Shown here: piece by piece, positions 7,427-59,337 of the stretch
Layout of the letters: each line of letters opens with the position of its first letter
Position numbering within the stretch: position 1 is the stretch's first letter
Source of the DNA: Sphyrna mokarran
Taxonomy: Eukaryota
Direction of reading: 5' to 3'
Assembly (NCBI GenBank): GCA_024679065.1
Contig: JAGIQG010000029.1
Location: 22,506,001 to 22,570,000 of the forward strand
DNA length: 64,000 nucleotides
Program-made: the position numbers and the translations under genes
The notes under the pieces: generated by a model
The model's input: only the letters and a program-made list of their open reading frames with translations
Databases searched by the model: none
Told to the model about the DNA's origin: nothing

Positions 7427-7543
7427 GTAAGAAGTCTCACAACACCAGGTTAAGTCCAACAGGTTTAACTGTCGGATTTTAACTTGGTGTTGTGAGACTT
7501 CTTATTGTGCTTACCTCAGACCAATGCTGACATTTCCACATCA
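7427..7543. mobile_element. Penelope-like hairpin element, centre deleted
   Basis: TAAGAAGTCTCACAACACCAGGTTAA / TTAACTTGGTGTTGTGAGACTTCTTA inverted arms, same family as 12852-13062. Flanking imperfect direct repeat at 7413-7430 / 7541-7558. Confidence 0.7.
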
Positions 7544-26697: not shown

Positions 26698-26867
26698 ATG
26701 TAAGTATAAAATGTGCCGCTGTGCATAGAACAAAAATGCCCCCAATTGGTCAGCTATCCAATGACCTTCTCTTTGAGTGGCAGGTTAAGTAGGCATGGCC
26801 TTTGACAACTGCAGAATGCTCCAAAGTATTCACAGTCAAGAAATAACTTATTCTGCAACCACTGTTG

Positions 26868-27246
26868 TCTTCTTGGCATCAATAAGGGGTGAAACCATGA
26901 TCAAGAAGGGCACAAGGCTAGCCCATTGCACTTGATGTAAACTCATGCCTGCAATCGTGGTTTGTGTAAGCTAGGGAATAGAGTAAAGGATCAGGGTAGC
27001 CAATGAGGTTTAGCTCAGGTCCTACCTGAAACAATGTTTCTAAAGCCATCTCAGCCTTTTGCCTAAGATGAAGTGTTAGATCAAGCCGGGGAGGTGGGGG
27101 AGGGGGGGTGGTGGTGGTAAGGGTGCAATGTCTCATCTTGTCAGCTTGCATCTGGTTTGTCTCTCATGTGGGGACCATGATTGGATTTCATTTGAATTGG
27201 CTTTTTTTTGATTAGAAGTACAAAAAGATACCAATTAAAAGAAAAA
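26868..27246 (+). mobile_element. Candidate snRNA-derived SINE (U1-U4-U2 chimera), copy 1
   Basis: U1-like 26885-26955, U4-like 26996-27019, U2-like 27049-27076, then a body and A-rich tail colinear with copy 2 at 56771. Confidence 0.8.
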
Positions 27247-27389
27247 CTTAGGCAGATAGTCTGTGAGTGAAATAGTGTCCAGTATGTGCGTTAAATTATG
27301 AACCAGCCATGGATGGTAATGGAACAGAAATTCATTGTAACTCATTGTCACCTACTGCCTTCACTGAAGATCAGTTTCGACTTTTATTG

Positions 27390-37848: not shown

Positions 37849-39599
37849 ATATGTATTTGGGAATGAATAGCAATATGTTGTTCTGCCAGTTTAAGGATAA
37901 TGCTGCTGGCTTTATTTAGGTTAACTCTCCCTTTTTAAGCCTTGACAGTATGGGGTAAATTTTCTGACTTCACCCATCATAGGAATCATCATGGGTGGGA
38001 TGGACAATTTAGCAGACCATTAAATGGTCCATTGACTTCAGGTAGGAGTTTCCTGTTCCTGGGACAGGGGGACTCCCCAATGTCATAGTGCCAGTTTTGA
38101 GGGGTGTCCCGACTGTACCTGCATGAAATTCCTGATTTCCACAGCGACCATATAATGGTCCCCCCAACTCTGACTGAAGACCTATGTATCAAACATTTCC
38201 CCATTAGAAGTTCTGTGAGCTCAGATCACGAAGAACTAAAATTAAATTGTCAACCTCATTTGAGGATCCGTTCCTACCGGCTTTCATTATTAGAGTTTAG
38301 ATTTTAAATGAGGTCCAAGGCATGCAACGGCAGTGTGCTGAACCCACTATGCCATCAAATCCCTTAACAATGTTGCCTTAAAGGATTTGATCATTTTCCC
38401 ATACAAAAGCAATTGCTTCAGTATAAACTTGGCACGCCAAAGCCTCAGTCAATTATATCCACCCCATTTATTGCAGTAATCACTGACTTCCACTTTCTGT
38501 TAATGTTGTTTTGTTAGTGACTAAACCTAATAAAACATGCTCAGATAAGAATGGTGATGTAAAAAGTATTTTCATGGACTAATGGACAAAGTGTTGACAA
38601 CATCTTCCATAATACATTAGCTGGGGCTTTTCATGTAATCCATCAGGTGAAGACAGCCTGCTATTGGCCAGCGAAAAATCCTCTGGTCACATCATTTGCC
38701 AATGGGGTTCCCCATTGGATGCATCCCTCGTCGCCATGCAACTTGCAGTGGGAGTGCACTGTCAGCAGGAACAGTAGATCCCACTAGTGTGAACAGGCAG
38801 AAATTTCTGGCCATTGTGTTTGTAGATTTAAATTTGAAATGAGAATACAAATGTTTCACAAAGCAAAATTCCAACATCTATAATGTATGGATGAATCCTT
38901 TAACACTTGATGGTACAGTCAATCACAGGTGCATTTTTTTTTGAATATCAATTTGCCGAAACTTTCTACTCAACAATAGTATGAGGAACATATAGTTGTG
39001 ATTTTATAAATGTTACATCTTTCTTTTAGATGGACACAAGAACCTTAAAGATGACTGTCAAGAGTCACTTGACTGCTTACAACTGCAATGTGGTCAAGCT
39101 TCCAGAAGGCTTCAAGTGAATTGTAAATAGACAGGTGAAGACATTTGAAATTCAATGTAGATTTCTACAAGGAGAAACAGAAATTATATCATGACAAAGT
39201 CAAAGCTGCATTATACATCAGCATGAACATTTCAATGATCATTCCCTCTCCCGACATCCACTGCCCTCCCTGCCACTCCCCCACCAACAGTGATGGGCCA
39301 TGTTTCATATGTTTCATGCCAATCAACTCTAGAACCTCATTGAAACACACTGGCATCTCATTATCAGAGCCCTACAGTAGAATCATAACCCCCATCAAAA
39401 AATCCATCCACACTGGTGTGATATCAGAAAGATCTGAATTATGACTGGCTTCAAAAGGCAAGCATCCAGTGAGCACCCCTCTGAGGGAGCTTGGTCAAAG
39501 GCTTTGCATATTGAGGGGACTGACTCATGATGAACAGCTTTTGACTTGGGGAAGATTAGGCTCTGACTGGGGATGAACAGGTGAACAGCCTATAATTTG

Positions 39600-40218
39600 A
39601 GCGAGACTGAGGTAACACTGGAATGAAGCTGGGGTAACACTAGAATGAGACAGGAATAAGACTGCAGTGGGACTAGAGTAACACAGGAGTGAGACCAAGA
39701 TAACCCTGGAATGAGACCAAGATAATGCTGGAGTGAGGCTGGATTAATACTGGAATGAAATTGGGATAACACTAGAGTGAGACTGGAGTAACACTGGAGT
39801 GAGACCACGATAACACTGGAGTGAGATCAGAGTAAGACTGGAGTAAGATTCTGGTAACACTGGAGCAAGATCAGAGTAATACTGGAGTGACACCATTGGA
39901 GTGAGACCGGGATAACACTGGAATGAAATTCCGGTAACACTGGAGAGAGACTGGGGTAAAACTGGAATGAAACTGGGATAACACTGGAGTGAAACTGGGG
40001 TAACACTGGAATAAGACTGGGGAAACACTAGAGTGAGAATAAAATAACACTAGATTGAGACCAGAGTAACACTAGAGTGAGATTCTAATAATAATGGAGT
40101 GAGATCAGGTGAGGCTGAGGTAACACCAGAGTGAGACCGGAGTAAAACTGGAGTAAGACTGGGGTAACAATGGAATGAGACAGGGCAGCACTGGAGTGAG
40201 ACTGGACTAACACTGGAA
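39600..40218. repeat. 22-bp minisatellite (GAGTGAGACTG-GGGTAACACTG)n, roughly 28 units
   Basis: Direct reading of the degenerate tandem array. Each unit is a dimer of related 11-mers. Confidence 0.9.
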
Positions 40219-51079: not shown

Positions 51080-53157
51080 CATGAACCTGGTTCAATTCAA
51101 ATTTGTTCTGGACAAAGAAATTGACAAATTACAGAAAAAGGTTTTGGATCGAGGGAGAGTAGATTTTAACAAAATTAGGCAGGATCTGGCCAAAGTAGAC
51201 TGGAATGAGTTACTTGCGGGCAAATCTACAGGACAACAGTGTTCAAAGATGAAATAGGGAGGGTACAGGCCCAACATGTTTCCTCTAGGGTAATAGGAAA
51301 ATGTAACAAAGCCAGAGAGCCATGGATGACCAAAAATATTCAGGATACAATGAGAAGGAAAAGAGAGGCTTTTAACAAATATGAGGGAAGTAGGTTTGCA
51401 GATGCTTTAATGAAGTGCAGAAAGTGCAGGATGGAGCTTAAGAAATCAATTAGGAGAGCAAAAAGGGGATATGAGAAAATTCTGGCTGCTAAAAGTAGGG
51501 AAAATCCGAAGATAGTCAATATCAATGAGAAGAGGTTAACCAGGGAAAGAATAGGACCTATCAAAGACCCAGGGGGAAATCTGTGGGTGGAGGCAGAGGA
51601 TATTGGTAGGATTTTAAATGAATATTTCACATCTGTCTTTACCCATGAGAATGAAGAAGTAGTTATGGAATTCAGGGAGAAAGACTCTAGGGAAAATTAT
51701 CATAGGCAGTGACAAAGTATTGGAAGCATTAACGGGCTTAAAACTGGACAAATCTCCAGATCTGGATGAATTGTGACCCAGGCTATTGTGGGAGGCAAGG
51801 GAGGAATTTGCAAGGGTTCTGAACCAAATTTTTAATTCCTCCCTGGCCACTGGGGAAGTGCCAGAAGACTGGAGAAAAGCTAATGTGGTCCACTATTTAA
51901 GAAAGCTTGTAGAGTCAAACCAGGAACTACAGACCAGTGAGTCTCATATCTGTGGTTGGAAAATATTGGAGATCTATCTCCATTTGGAGAAGCATGGTTT
52001 GATCGGGGATAGTCAGGATGGTTTTGTCAGAGGGAAGCCATGCCTAACAAATTTGATTGAATGTTTTGATCATGTAACCAAGTATGTGGATGAGGGTAGT
52101 GCAGTTGATGTAGTTTACATGGATTTCAGCAAAGCCTTTGACAAAGTCCCATATGGGAGACTTATTAAGAAGGATAATGCACATGGCATACAGGGTAATC
52201 TGATAAGGTGGATTCATAATTGGCTTAGCAGTAGAAGACAGAGCGTGGTGATAGACAGCTGCTTTAGTGACTGGAGGCCAGTGACCAGTGGCCACAGGGA
52301 CCTGTTCTGGACTCCCTATTGTTCCTCATTTATATAAATGACATAGATAACTATGTGGGGAGAGTAGGATCAGTATGTTTGCCAATGACACAAAAATTGG
52401 CTGTGTGGTTAACAGTGAGGTTGATTGTCTTGGTTACAGGAAGAAATAGACGGGATGGTCAAGTAGGCAGATAAACGGCAGATGGAATTTAATCCTGAAA
52501 GTGTGAGGTAATGCACTTTGGAAGGAGTAATTTGACAAAGAAGTGTACTGTGAAAGATCTGACACTGGAAAGCTCTGAAGAACAAAGGGACCTTGGTGTA
52601 TTTGTCCATAGACCTCTGAAGGTGGAAAGGTGGGTAAATAGGGTTGTGAAAAAGATATATGGTACACTTGCCTTTATCAATTGAGATACAGATTACAAAA
52701 GCAACAGGTCATGATGAAGTATAAAACTTTGGTGAAGCCAAAGCAGGAATACTGTGTGCAATTCTGGTTGCTACATTATACGAAGGATATGAATGCACTA
52801 GTGGGGGTGCAGAGGAGATTTATAGGATGCTACTTAGGGTGGAACATTGAAGTTATGAAGAGAGGTTGGATAGGCTTGGGTTGTTTTTGTTGAAGCAGAG
52901 AAGACAGAGGGGCGACCTAATTGAGGTATTCAAGATTACGAGGGGCATAGAGAGTGTGGATAGGGAGCAGCTGGTCCCCTTAGTTGAAGGGTCAGTTTTA
53001 AGGGCACACAAGTTAAAAGTGAGGAGTGGGAAGTTTAGGGGGGATTTGAGGAAAAACCTTTCTTACCCAGAGGGTGGTGATGGTCTGGAATGCACTGTCT
53101 GGGAGGCTGGTGGAGGCAAGTTGCCTCACATCCTTTAAAAAGTACCTGGATGAATAT
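51080..53157 (+). mobile_element. CR1/HER1 LINE ORF2 pseudogene fragment (~2.1 kb)
   Basis: PWMTKNI..LNEYFTSVFT..TGEVPEDWRKANV..DSQDGFVRGKPCLTNL..VDVVYMDFSKAFDKVP..FANDTK..EYCVQFW..RGDLIEVFKI, with many stops and frameshifts. Confidence 0.95.
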
Positions 53158-53505
53158 TCTCATCCTTGTTTCAAACCTCTCCTTAGCCTGATTCCTCACT
53201 ATCGGTGTAACCTCCTCAAGCTGATCTGCCAAAATATCTGCACTCCTCTAATTCCGGCCTTATATATATATGTATATCCCCGAGTTAAAATCACTTGTTG
53301 ATGGCTGCCATTGTTTCAGCCGCTTCAGATTCTGAAATTCCTTTTCTATAAGTCTTTACCTCTCAGCACATATCCTTTCCCCTTGAACGTGTTCCTTACA
53401 GCCCAACCCTTTGAACAAATGTTAGATCCTCATCTGTCTATATATGTAGCTCGATGTCATATTTTGTTTGGTATCTTGGAACCTTTTGGCAAGGCTTCAC
53501 ATATC

Positions 53506-56734: not shown

Positions 56735-56976
56735 ATCATCTTGATTTTACTGTAGTTTGTATGCCTCGGTATACTTACCTGGCTGGGGTGAAACTACGAT
56801 CAAGCAGGGGGTTGATGTTAGCTTATTGTACAGAGGAGTGTGCTAATGCCTGCAGTCATGGTTTTTCTCAGCTACAGTAGAATTAAAGATCATAGTAGCT
56901 AAAGACGTTAAACCAAGGCTATACTTGATGCAACTTTTTAAAGCCACCTCGGCCTTTTGGCTAAGATAAAGCGGTG

Positions 56977-57319
56977 GAATCATAGAAAACCTACAGTACA
57001 GAATGAGGCCATTCAGCCCATCGAGTCTGCACTGGCAACAATCCTACCCCAGGCCCTATCCCCACAACTCCTCACATTTACTTCGCTTATCCCTCTGACC
57101 TACACATTCCAGGGCACTAAGGAGCAAGTTAGCATGATCAATCGACCTAACTCGCATATCTTTGGATTGTGGGAGGAAACTGGAGGACACAGAGGAAACC
57201 CATGCCAACATGAGGAGAATGTACAAACTCCACACAGACAGTGACGCAAGCCAGGAATTGAATCCAGGTCCTGGAGCTGTGAGGCAGTGGTGGTAACGAC
57301 TGTGCCACTGTGTCACCCC
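56977..57319 (-). mobile_element. HE1-like V-SINE, tail class A
   Basis: Full copy inserted just after the U2-like segment. Confidence 0.92.
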
Positions 57320-57477
57320 ACTAGATAACTCTTGGAGTGGGATGCAATGTCTCATCCTCTTAGCTTGGATCTTGTTTGATCAAGCCCAAGATGGGATGTA
57401 ATGTCTTGTCCTATAAGCTTAGATTTTAGTTGTCCCTCATGCGGGGACCATGATTGGACTTAAATTGAATTAAATAA

Positions 57478-58502
57478 AATAGAACAAAGAACAAAACAGG
57501 CCCTTCGGCCAAACGAGCCCACGCCGCCACCCCGATGTTCCCACCTCTACCCGTGATCCCTGTCCATGTTTATAGATCTATGGATTAAAAACCAAATTTG
57601 AGACAATTTAGGAGAATTTGTTTTGCCAATTAGCCTAAGAGCACATTTTTGGAATGTGGGAGAAAACCGGAGCACCCGGAGAAAATCCACGCAAGCATGA
57701 GGAGAATGCGCAAACTCTCACAGACACAGGCCCAAATCCATGTATCTGCACAGCACAGCGATAGTCACTGAGCTGTCGTGTTGCCAATCAAATGGTCCAG
57801 GTCAAGCGTACACTAATGATGTGAAGCACTAGGATACACTCGAAAAAAAAATCCAAGAGCAGCCCTCTCACGACCCATCGCGTGTATGCCCCTTGTTAGA
57901 CAACAAGGTGGACCAAAGCACCTGTAGGATAAAAACAAGTACATCAATATCATCGTCGATTTACACACTTTCCAGGGACTGCCAAGGCTCATGGTTCCTA
58001 TTTCAAATCAGTTTTCTATACCCCTCCATTCCCATTCTGTTCATGTGCCCATCTAAGTATTTCTTAAATAACTCCAGAGTGCCTGCTTCCACCACTTTAC
58101 TTGGCAGCGCACCACCTTCTGTGTGAAAAAACTCCCTCTAACATCCAAATTATATCTTACCCCTCTCACCCTAAGCCTGTGACCCCTCGTGCTATTTGAG
58201 TCCATCCTAGAAAAAAGCTTAACCCTGTTTACTCTATCTATACCCCTCATAATCTTGTACACCTCTATTATTTCTCCTCTAAATCTATGTCTTTCTAAGG
58301 AAAACAGCCCCAATTTGCCTAATCTCTCCTCATAACTCAGACCTTCCATACCAGGCAGCATCCTGGTAAACCTTCTCTGCATTCTCTCCAGACTCTCCAC
58401 GTCCTTTCAGTAGTAAGGCGACCAGAACTGGACGCAGTATTCCAAATGAGGTCTAATCAACATTTTATACAACTGCAACATTAAAGGCCAGCTCTTGTAC
58501 TA
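57478..58502 (-). mobile_element. CR1 LINE 3' end whose long 3' UTR contains a divergent V-SINE (57480-57786)
   Basis: LEYCVQFWSP..LERMQRRFTRMLPGM..FFTQKVV, then ~230 bp of unique sequence, a V-SINE body, and a CR1-type GGCCGAAGGGCCTG..(TTCTTTG)n tail. Confidence 0.8.
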
Positions 58503-59337
58503 TACCAAAAGGTACTAATTAAAAAAAATACAGTTGGTGAATTTTGCAATGAATTTTATGCAACATTAAAAGAGAGATGTTGAACACAGATGTTTAGCTC
58601 TGTTTCTATGGTTACTGATAGGTATTCTTAGTCTTTAATTTAAATGCAGCACAAGAGCTTCCTTCCAGTCTACACTTAAATCCCAACCTCTCTAATAATT
58701 CAGCAATTGATTCTAATTCTAATGTCTTTGTGTTGTTGATTGAACACCACTGAAATAAAAACTGAACTAAAACTGCTGCTGGGCAATAATCAGCAGCAAG
58801 TAAAACTTTTGTCATGAAAAGGTTTAAGTTTCTACCAAAATAACAGAAGTTTCACATGAGTTAATATTATTGATTACACTTTGTGAAATAGAAAACATAA
58901 AAAATCATAGAAATTCCAAAGCGTAGAAAGAGGCCATTTGGCCCATCAAGTCTGAAATAACCACAATCCAACCCAGGCCCTACCCCCATATCCCTACACA
59001 TTTACTTGCTAATCCTTCTATACTTAAAGAGTGTTAGGTTGGCTTAAAAATAACAAAGTGAACATTTTTCCTATGTTAACTTTAGAAAACCTGTCCTGAT
59101 TGTTGGTTCTGTCTATGATGGCAGCACATAACCAGTCAGGTACTCACCACATCAGCAACAAAAACAAATAGCGATCAAATGGGGAGCGGACAAAGAGGAG
59201 AGCCATTTAACCTCCAGTTAATAAATAATGTAGAACTGCTGTACAAATGACATGTAAACATGTCATAAGAAGGTATTCATGGTCTCTAACCTAGGATAAT
59301 AAATTAGTTTTCAACCCATTGCCACAAACCCAAGATT

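What the first reader, a model, noticed from the sequence alone, without database searches (positions are those of the whole stretch)
56771..58528. Second U1-U4-U2 copy starts exactly at U1 nucleotide +1 and predates HE1-A and CR1 insertions
56771-56813 is ATACTTACCTGGCTGGGGTGAAACTACGATCAAGCAGGGGGTT (35/43 to the U1 5' end). 56895-56919 is 19/25 to U4 GTAGCCAATGAGGTTTATCCGAGGC. 56948-56967 is an exact 20-mer of U2 (CTCGGCCTTTTGGCTAAGAT). An HE1 SINE sits right after the U2 part and a 1-kb CR1 composite sits in the tail. Beyond it, TACCAAAAGGTACTAATTAAAA (58503-58524) matches copy 1's end (27219-27240) at 19/22, which fixes the true 3' terminus. The body here has two ~55-bp tandem subunits (TGGGATG[C/T]AATGTCT..AGCTT.GAT.T) against one in copy 1, so body length is variable. 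A start at the U1 cap site implies reverse transcription of a full-length RNA initiated like U1 (inference).
Basis: partly seen in the sequence, partly recalled or inferred. Interest (0 to 1): 0.7.

Follow-up and report, generated by a model that had tools for sequence, protein, structure and literature searches.

The report
Jumping element built from three snRNAs
Two old copies of a short mobile element in this vertebrate (probably shark-like) DNA are made almost entirely of pieces of three splicing RNAs (U1, U4 and U2), resembling a SINE class described from crocodiles but with an extra U4 piece.

Summary
Against real snRNA genes, copy 2 (56771-58528) and copy 1 (26866-27245) both read: U1 nt 1-~93 with a shared ~10-nt deletion; a 41-43-nt unassigned linker; U4 nt 23-47; U2 nt 1-~35; then a 'body' that is itself decayed U2 (nt ~31-104; 0 of 894 and 0 of 776 control stretches score as high); a short tail; an A-run. 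The two 54-bp subunits are duplicated U2 23-62. Shared derived changes and unrelated flanks make these two insertions of one family. A minus-strand V-SINE/HE1-like SINE splits the U2 part; a second SINE plus a CR1-like fragment split the tail (19/22 match, unique in the window). Closest known: crocodilian SINEU (U1/U2 only). The start at U1 +1 fits a source behind a U1 promoter, but template switching onto U1 RNA, documented for SINEU-2, gives the same end. Only two copies were available: copy number, target sites and source locus are untested, and the host lineage is inferred. The scan noted a U4-headed LINE in another genome, not this element.

The parts
56771..56853 (+). Copy 2, U1-derived head: U1 nt 1-92 with a ~10-nt internal deletion; first 13 nt identical to U1
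   Evidence: score 76.5, 0 of 1226 window controls; second half alone weaker (10 of 1226)
56854..56894 (+). Linker shared with copy 1; source unassigned (U4 5' end possible, not significant)
   Evidence: copy1/copy2 score 34, 0 of 1000 shuffles; U4 1-22 reached by 54 of 1214 controls; no hit among 87 loci
56895..56919 (+). U4 nt 23-47 (5' stem-loop region), 19/25
   Evidence: (0 of 1214 controls)
56920..56940 (+). Short linker shared with copy 1; may hold a remnant of U4 nt ~60-72 (inconclusive)
   Evidence: 2 of 1000 shuffles for copy1/copy2; U4 48-75 not significant
56941..56976 (+). U2 nt 1-33; nt 8-27 exact
56977..57319 (-). Later insertion: tRNA-headed V-SINE/HE1-like SINE (family name recalled), about 28 relatives in the window
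   Evidence: 68-73% identity to full-length relatives
57321..57375 (+). Subunit 1: duplicated, decayed U2 ~23-62 region
   Evidence: 28/33 to copy 1 core; not significant against U2 on its own
57376..57429 (+). Subunit 2: U2 24-31, short insert, U2 23-62; folds as one long hairpin
   Evidence: (z -1.7)
57430..57477 (+). U2 nt ~66-102 (stem-loop IIb region up to the Sm site, which is cut off by the next insertion)
   Evidence: U2 63-107, 0 of 776 controls
57478..57785 (-). Later insertion: second V-SINE-like SINE with a different tail
   Evidence: core 57641-57738 is 73-80% alike to the window's SINEs
57786..58002 (-). Unassigned; probably the 3' UTR of the CR1-like piece
   Evidence: no match elsewhere in the window; follows the ORF2 stop
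58003..58502 (-). Later insertion: 5'-truncated, frameshifted C-terminal ORF2 of a CR1-like LINE (clade name recalled)
   Evidence: 48% identity to a window LINE at 52851-53135 whose upstream part hits Pfam RVT_1; no Pfam hit itself
58503..58528 (+). Tail of copy 2: non-snRNA 22-mer ending in ATTAAA plus A-run
26866..27245 (+). Copy 1, uninterrupted: U1 ~4-94 (26869-26954), U4 23-47 (26996-27020, first 17 exact), U2 1-36 (27043-27078), one subunit with a G-rich expansion, U2 31-104 (27123-27205), tail and A-run

Best explanation
A non-autonomous retroposon of the SINEU type, of independent origin from the crocodilian families. Shown: both copies are U1(1-~93, shared deletion) + linker + U4(23-47) + U2(1-~35) + partly duplicated U2(23-104) + short tail + A-run, at unrelated sites, sharing derived changes; copy 2 was hit later by three other retroelement pieces. 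Inferred: (a) it began as a 3'-truncated U2 copy with an A-tail and grew by 5' additions, first U4, then U1, each 3'-truncated; (b) the whole composite was transcribed from a source locus, because both copies inherited the same altered U1 part; (c) a poly(A)-priming LINE (L1/Tx1 group) copied it; (d) the source RNA began at U1 +1 because the source lay behind a real U1 promoter, for instance after the U4-U2 element landed in, or recombined with, a U1 gene. Copies then lose the promoter and are dead on arrival. My odds: family of retrocopies 0.8; step (d) given that about 0.55-0.6.
For: Module map. An unbiased nhmmer scan of the window with real U1, U2 and U4 puts 6 of its 7 hits at E<1 inside the two copies. 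Body = U2: 0 of 894 and 0 of 776 window controls; 0 of 2000 shuffled-U2 queries in each copy, and a body-only profile ranks the two vertebrate-type U2 genes first among 87 loci, 86 kb (E 0.02). Common source: 22 of 174 ungapped columns are shared by both copies against the snRNA, plus the shared U1 deletion and linkers. Independent sites: 300-bp upstream flanks score 30 against a control mean of 42. Both copies end in ATTAAA plus an A-run. T-runs of 4-8 inside both copies argue against Pol III, as for SINEU. Copy 2 stops exactly at +1 and copy 1 at about +1 to +14, with no shared upstream sequence.
Against: Only two copies; no TSD at either; no partner LINE with this tail in the window. No PSE or octamer recognisable upstream of either copy (expected for dead copies, but no source locus was seen). 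The family signature in U1 starts only at nt 19, so nt 1-18 of copy 2 could be a fresh template-switch addition as in SINEU-2. Rfam does not recognise the body as U2 (E 4 in copy 1; no hit in copy 2) nor the U4 piece. A profile of the second U1 half found no U1 gene at E<=10. Reference snRNAs are not from the host lineage, so some 'shared derived' sites may be host gene variants.
Confidence: 0.48

Rival explanations
1. Same SINEU-like family, but transcribed by read-through from flanking promoters; the U1 +1 end of copy 2 is made or restored when the reverse transcriptase jumps onto abundant U1 RNA and runs off its capped end (Kojima's model for SINEU).
For: 26 SINEU-2 copies carry separately added U1 5' ends, and two SINEU-2 subfamilies carry 5' flank from their source loci (PMC4494074). 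Template switching onto U5 starts internally and gives 3'-truncated pieces (PMC4476161, passages). The internal U2 module also starts near its own +1. Copy 2's nt 1-13 are unchanged while copy 1's are poor.
Against: Neither copy shares upstream sequence with the other. Both inherit the altered U1 from nt 19 on. In human, U1 and U4 form template-switch chimeras with L1 extremely rarely.
Confidence: 0.3
2. The copies are processed pseudogenes of a functional or once functional fused snRNA-like gene rather than a selfish SINE; the source RNA was under selection for structure.
For: Nearly the whole element is snRNA. Derived changes turn U2 23-62 into a longer hairpin: z -1.7 and -2.0 in two of three units; 92 of 2000 randomly mutated U2 models fold as well as unit 2. 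The U1-70K and U1A loop sequences are intact in copy 1.
Against: The third unit shows no such signal (z 0.23), the U1 parts none (z about 0.5); two helix registers fit equally; the branch-site pairing sequence of U2 is altered and the Sm site is imperfect in copy 1. SINE sources also evolve structure. Two copies in 64 kb suggest a high copy number if the window is typical.
Confidence: 0.1
3. The element is an internally deleted or truncated derivative of an snRNA-headed Tx1/L1 LINE (head plus last ~40 nt), not a SINE assembled on U2.
For: Crocodilian Tx1 families carry U1 or U2 heads; an earlier unchecked note reports a U4-headed LINE in another genome. The last ~35 nt are not snRNA.
Against: No coding sequence in either copy; no LINE with this head or tail in the window.
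Confidence: 0.07
4. One chimeric retrocopy duplicated once at DNA level (segmental or local duplication).
For: Both copies lie 30 kb apart on one strand; no third copy was seen.
Against: Similarity stops at the element's ends; upstream and downstream flanks are unrelated.
Confidence: 0.05

Closest known systems
SINEU-2 (crocodile, gharial; Kojima 2015, PMC4494074)
   Same: 5' U1 part joined to a 3' U2 part, A-tail, under 500 bp, internal T-runs, no internal promoter
   Different: Here a U4 piece and two linkers lie between; the U1 part is ~83 nt (SINEU-2 junction at about nt 53-58 per the text); old copies (about 70% alike); host apparently not a crocodilian. Sequences could not be compared: the figure and supplement were not readable.
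SINEU-1 and SINEU-3 (crocodilians)
   Same: Stacked snRNA modules and partial duplications inside them (SINEU-1); an element made of rearranged U2 plus ~40 unrelated 3' nt (SINEU-3)
   Different: SINEU-1 has a long non-snRNA 3' half; SINEU-3 has an internal U2 deletion, here an internal duplication and a stop at U2 ~104; no Mariner-N4 target seen
Tailless and chimeric snRNA retropseudogenes (Noll 2015 PMC5322556; Doucet 2015 PMC4476161)
   Same: 3'-truncated snRNA pieces in sense orientation that keep their 5' ends
   Different: Those are one-off events; here three snRNAs, the same junctions and the same derived changes recur in two copies
Keno / Utopia, U2-targeting LINEs (PMC4640811)
   Same: U2 is broken near nt 33-38, close to their target site (38/39), with a repeat of U2 24-31
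   Different: No LINE lies between the U2 parts; U2 stops at ~104 and moves with the element

Membership tests
SINEU | Head derived from U1 or U2 snRNA | tested here: met
SINEU | Short (<500 bp), non-coding | tested here: met
   copy 1 is 380 bp; copy 2 is 390 bp after excision
SINEU | 3' poly(A) tail | tested here: met
   short A-runs at 27237-27247 and 58521-58528; decayed
SINEU | Shared internal structure between copies (not independent chimeras) | tested here: met
   shared U1 deletion, linkers, 22 shared columns; n = 2
SINEU | High copy number, dispersed | not testable with these tools
   no whole genome held; 2 copies in 64 kb
SINEU | Target-site duplication or truncation | tested here: inconclusive
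   no convincing TSD; best 8/9 A-rich at copy 1; also hard to see in old SINEU-1
SINEU | Mobilised by Tx1-Mar, preference for Mariner-N4_AMi | not testable with these tools
   flanks match nothing else in the window; no repeat library available
SINEU-1/-2/-3 (descent from the crocodilian families) | Only U1 and U2 modules; crocodilian host | tested here: not met
   U4 module present in both copies; host inferred to be a cartilaginous fish, not shown
Pol III SINE (SINE1/2/3) | tRNA, 7SL or 5S head with internal promoter, no internal T-runs | tested here: not met
   head is U1; T4-T8 runs inside
Functional U1/U2/U4 snRNA gene | Full length, Rfam gathering score, upstream PSE/DSE, Sm site | tested here: not met
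   23.9 bits vs 69.5; all three pieces 3'-truncated; no octamer within 1 mismatch in ~370 nt upstream, no PSE like those of L022/L077 by eye
U2-targeting LINE insertion (Keno, Utopia) | LINE between U2 nt 38 and 39 of a full U2 gene | tested here: not met
   no LINE at that point in copy 1; U2 111-191 absent

The most novel reading that the evidence does not exclude
A cartilaginous-fish retroposon that gained transcription three times over by capturing snRNA gene promoters (U2, then U4, then U1), so that its source is a Pol II snRNA-type gene making one fused U1-U4-U2 RNA that keeps U1-70K and U1A loops and restructured U2 and U4 stems, and uses snRNP-like packaging to survive and be copied. 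It would be the first three-snRNA and first U4-containing SINE and would answer, by a findable source locus, how snRNA-headed SINEs are transcribed without an internal promoter.
Probability: 0.2. Interest if true: 0.85.

Novelty: new variant of a known kind. Interest (0 to 1): 0.56.

Why it matters
SINEU was reported only from crocodilians and only with U1 or U2, and how it is transcribed was left open (PMC4494074). A second, independent origin with U4 added would show that snRNA-built SINEs are a repeatable outcome, and slow-evolving genomes may still hold the source locus that decides between promoter capture and template switching. It also warns that snRNA annotation in such genomes can be inflated by these copies.

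Tried and rejected
No whole genome is held and no read or contig data could be laid on the locus, so copy number and 5' starts stay open. The look-up of sequencing runs listed 24 runs, one holding 0.70 of the words and 23 holding 0.05-0.22; none was laid, so they are no evidence of the family's spread (the stretch is mostly common SINE/LINE). No further copy: U4-U2 junction pattern in viral contigs 0; blastn in plasmids 0; the metagenome scan gave 7 loci, 6 U4 genes by Rfam and one cut U4-like piece, no family copy. Rejected: the 3' body as U1 stem-loop III (p 0.2-0.27). Rejected: a loop-loop pairing between the U1A loop and the altered U2 loop (8-mer; 67 of 300 shuffles reach 8). Untested: the first linker as U5, because no U5 gene could be fetched (0 of 10 genomes; 0 in viral contigs). 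U4 1-22 and 48-75 are not significant alone. My first U1 filter dropped the vertebrate-type genes and kept two non-U1 loci; on used Rfam-confirmed genes. The transition-tolerant scoring was chosen after (plain scoring, U2 51-110 alone: p 0.017 and 0.020); one search repeats the test with plain scoring. The U4 and U1 reference loci were fetched with motifs taken from the window, which biases those motifs; Rfam confirms their identity and copy 2 gives a second check for U4. Ogiwara 2002 (V-SINEs) was not held, so HE1/V-SINE naming is recalled.

Full report
1. Observation. I read both regions. No whole genome is held, so I fetched real snRNA genes as references: U4 from metagenome contigs (7 loci, 6 confirmed by Rfam), U1 from eukaryotic contigs inside prokaryote assemblies (73 loci; 14 of the 17 scanned hold an Rfam U1) and full U2. 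L022/L077 (U1) and L083/L084 (U2) are vertebrate-type by sequence and give the numbering. The finding's counts reproduce: 35-36/43 to U1, 19/25 to U4, an exact U2 20-mer, 19/22 for the tail. With the insertions excised as proposed, copy 2 aligns end to end with copy 1 (214.5 against a shuffle maximum of 3.5). blastn gives 70.5% over the head and 77% and 85% for the two body matches. The tail match is unique: next best 16/22 in the window, and 0 of 154 control stretches pass 17/22. It starts exactly where the minus-strand LINE piece is 5'-truncated.

2. Anatomy. The U1 part is longer than reported: U1 1-92 at 56771-56853 and U1 4-94 at 26869-26954, both lacking about 10-11 nt between nt ~39 and ~53 (0 of 1226 and 0 of 1156 window controls). 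The second half alone is clear in copy 1 (0 of 1156), weak in copy 2 (10 of 1226), and a 43-nt profile of it found no U1 at E<=10. U4 23-47 is significant in both copies (0 of 1156, 0 of 1214); copy 1 has 17 exact bases. U4 1-22 and 48-75 are not significant alone. U2 1-33/36 follows. The main new result is that the body is U2 too: U2 31-104 at 27123-27205 and U2 23-102 at 57388-57471 (0 of 894 and 0 of 776 controls). With plain scoring, 0 of 2000 shuffled U2 queries reach the score in either copy, and a profile built only from the two bodies ranks the two vertebrate-type U2 genes first among 87 loci (E 0.02), with invertebrate U2 genes at E 2.6 behind one unrelated hit. Against this, Rfam's model sees U2 1-111 in copy 1 only at E 4 and nothing in copy 2's body. 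The 54-bp subunits are the U2 23-62 region preceded by a repeat of U2 24-31. An nhmmer scan of the whole window with real U1, U2 and U4 gives 7 hits at E<1, 6 of them in the two copies, and no third copy.

3. One family, two insertions. Of 174 ungapped columns in six snRNA blocks, 106 are the same in all three sequences, 22 are shared by both copies against the snRNA, 15 are private to copy 1, 22 to copy 2 and 9 differ in all. Some shared sites may be host gene variants or junction bases, since the references come from other lineages; the shared U1 deletion, a shared 1-nt deletion in U2 and two shared linkers (0 and 2 of 1000 shuffles) do not depend on that. Flanks are unrelated. No TSD is convincing. 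Both copies end in ATTAAA and an A-run.

4. Later insertions. A minus-strand SINE (56977-57319), one of about 28 relatives in the window, splits U2 after nt 33. A second minus-strand SINE (57478-~57785), ~210 unassigned bases and a frameshifted ORF2 end (~58003-58502) replace 20 bases near the U2 Sm site. The names HE1/V-SINE and CR1 are recalled, not from a call. That the host is a shark or ray is an inference from them; a review passage names L2, CR1 and SINEs as the prevalent elements there (PMC5381603). The first SINE is 68-73% alike to its full-length relatives, similar to the two copies' 70%, so the families were active in about the same period; the order in copy 2 rests on collinearity with copy 1.

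5. Mechanism. Shown: structure, common source, independent sites, nesting. Inferred: growth by 5' addition on an A-tailed U2 core; copying by a poly(A)-priming LINE; Pol II transcription (T-runs inside). The composite must have been transcribed from U1 nt 19 or earlier, because both copies inherit the altered U1. Copy 2 ends at +1 and copy 1 within +1 to +14, with nothing shared upstream. This favours a source that starts at +1, most simply one behind a U1 promoter, but does not prove it: in SINEU-2, U1 5' ends are added again and again by template switching. Neither copy shows an octamer or a PSE like those of L022/L077. There is modest evidence that the source RNA restructured its U2 part into a long hairpin (z -1.7 and -2.0 in two units, 0.23 in the third; 92 of 2000 in a mutation null). 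A loop-loop pairing and a U1 stem-loop III origin of the body were tested and dropped.

6. Comparison. It works like SINEU and meets the tested structural features, but it is not one of SINEU-1, -2 or -3: it has a U4 module and, as inferred, another host. Papers: PMC4494074, parts 1-4 of 5 read (all text, start of the references), figures not held, supplement not available, so SINEU sequences were not compared; passages only of PMC4640811, PMC5786205, bioRxiv 2025.02.02.635956 (52), PMC4758252, PMC5381603, PMC5322556, PMC4476161. Searches that found no paper on an snRNA-headed SINE in sharks or on a U4-containing SINE, judged from listings. The library lacks most subscription journals, and Repbase and Dfam could not be searched; the family may be deposited there. 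Earlier scan notes: none by sequence, place or relatives; one unchecked note of a U4-headed LINE in another genome.

7. Verdict. A real feature, a new variant of a known kind: a SINEU-like element made almost wholly of U1, U4 and U2. The start at +1 is real; its reading as U1-type initiation is the likelier of two routes, not shown. Interest 0.56, limited by two old copies and no genome-wide data.

Noticed in passing
window 39599-40218: Tandem array of a 22-bp unit, about 28 copies, 66-80% matches, with 44- and 66-bp higher periods.
   Followed up: no
window 7431-7501: A ~70-nt near-perfect inverted repeat that scores weakly to a miRNA model on both strands (38 bits vs 59); probably a small palindromic repeat.
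   Followed up: no
window 51209-53300: A longer, broken CR1-like LINE on the plus strand with an RT remnant (Pfam RVT_1, E 1.3e-6).
   Followed up: partly
window 27087-27122: In copy 1 the short insert of the subunit is replaced by a 36-nt G-rich run.
   Followed up: no
window 58503-58514 and 27216-27233: The tail can form a small hairpin with an A4 loop in copy 2, less well in copy 1; a possible LINE-recognition end.
   Followed up: partly
L009-L081: Many prokaryote assemblies in genome contigs contain eukaryotic contigs with U1, U2 and 5S tandem arrays (38 U2 matches in one): host contamination in species-representative genomes.
   Followed up: no
L001:1-45: A U4-like piece that stops at about U4 nt 62, like a 3'-truncated retrocopy; cut by the contig start and missed by Rfam.
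   Followed up: no
L008:522-627: A viral contigs record holds a 3'-truncated U2 piece (49.7 bits), suggesting eukaryotic DNA in that collection.
   Followed up: no
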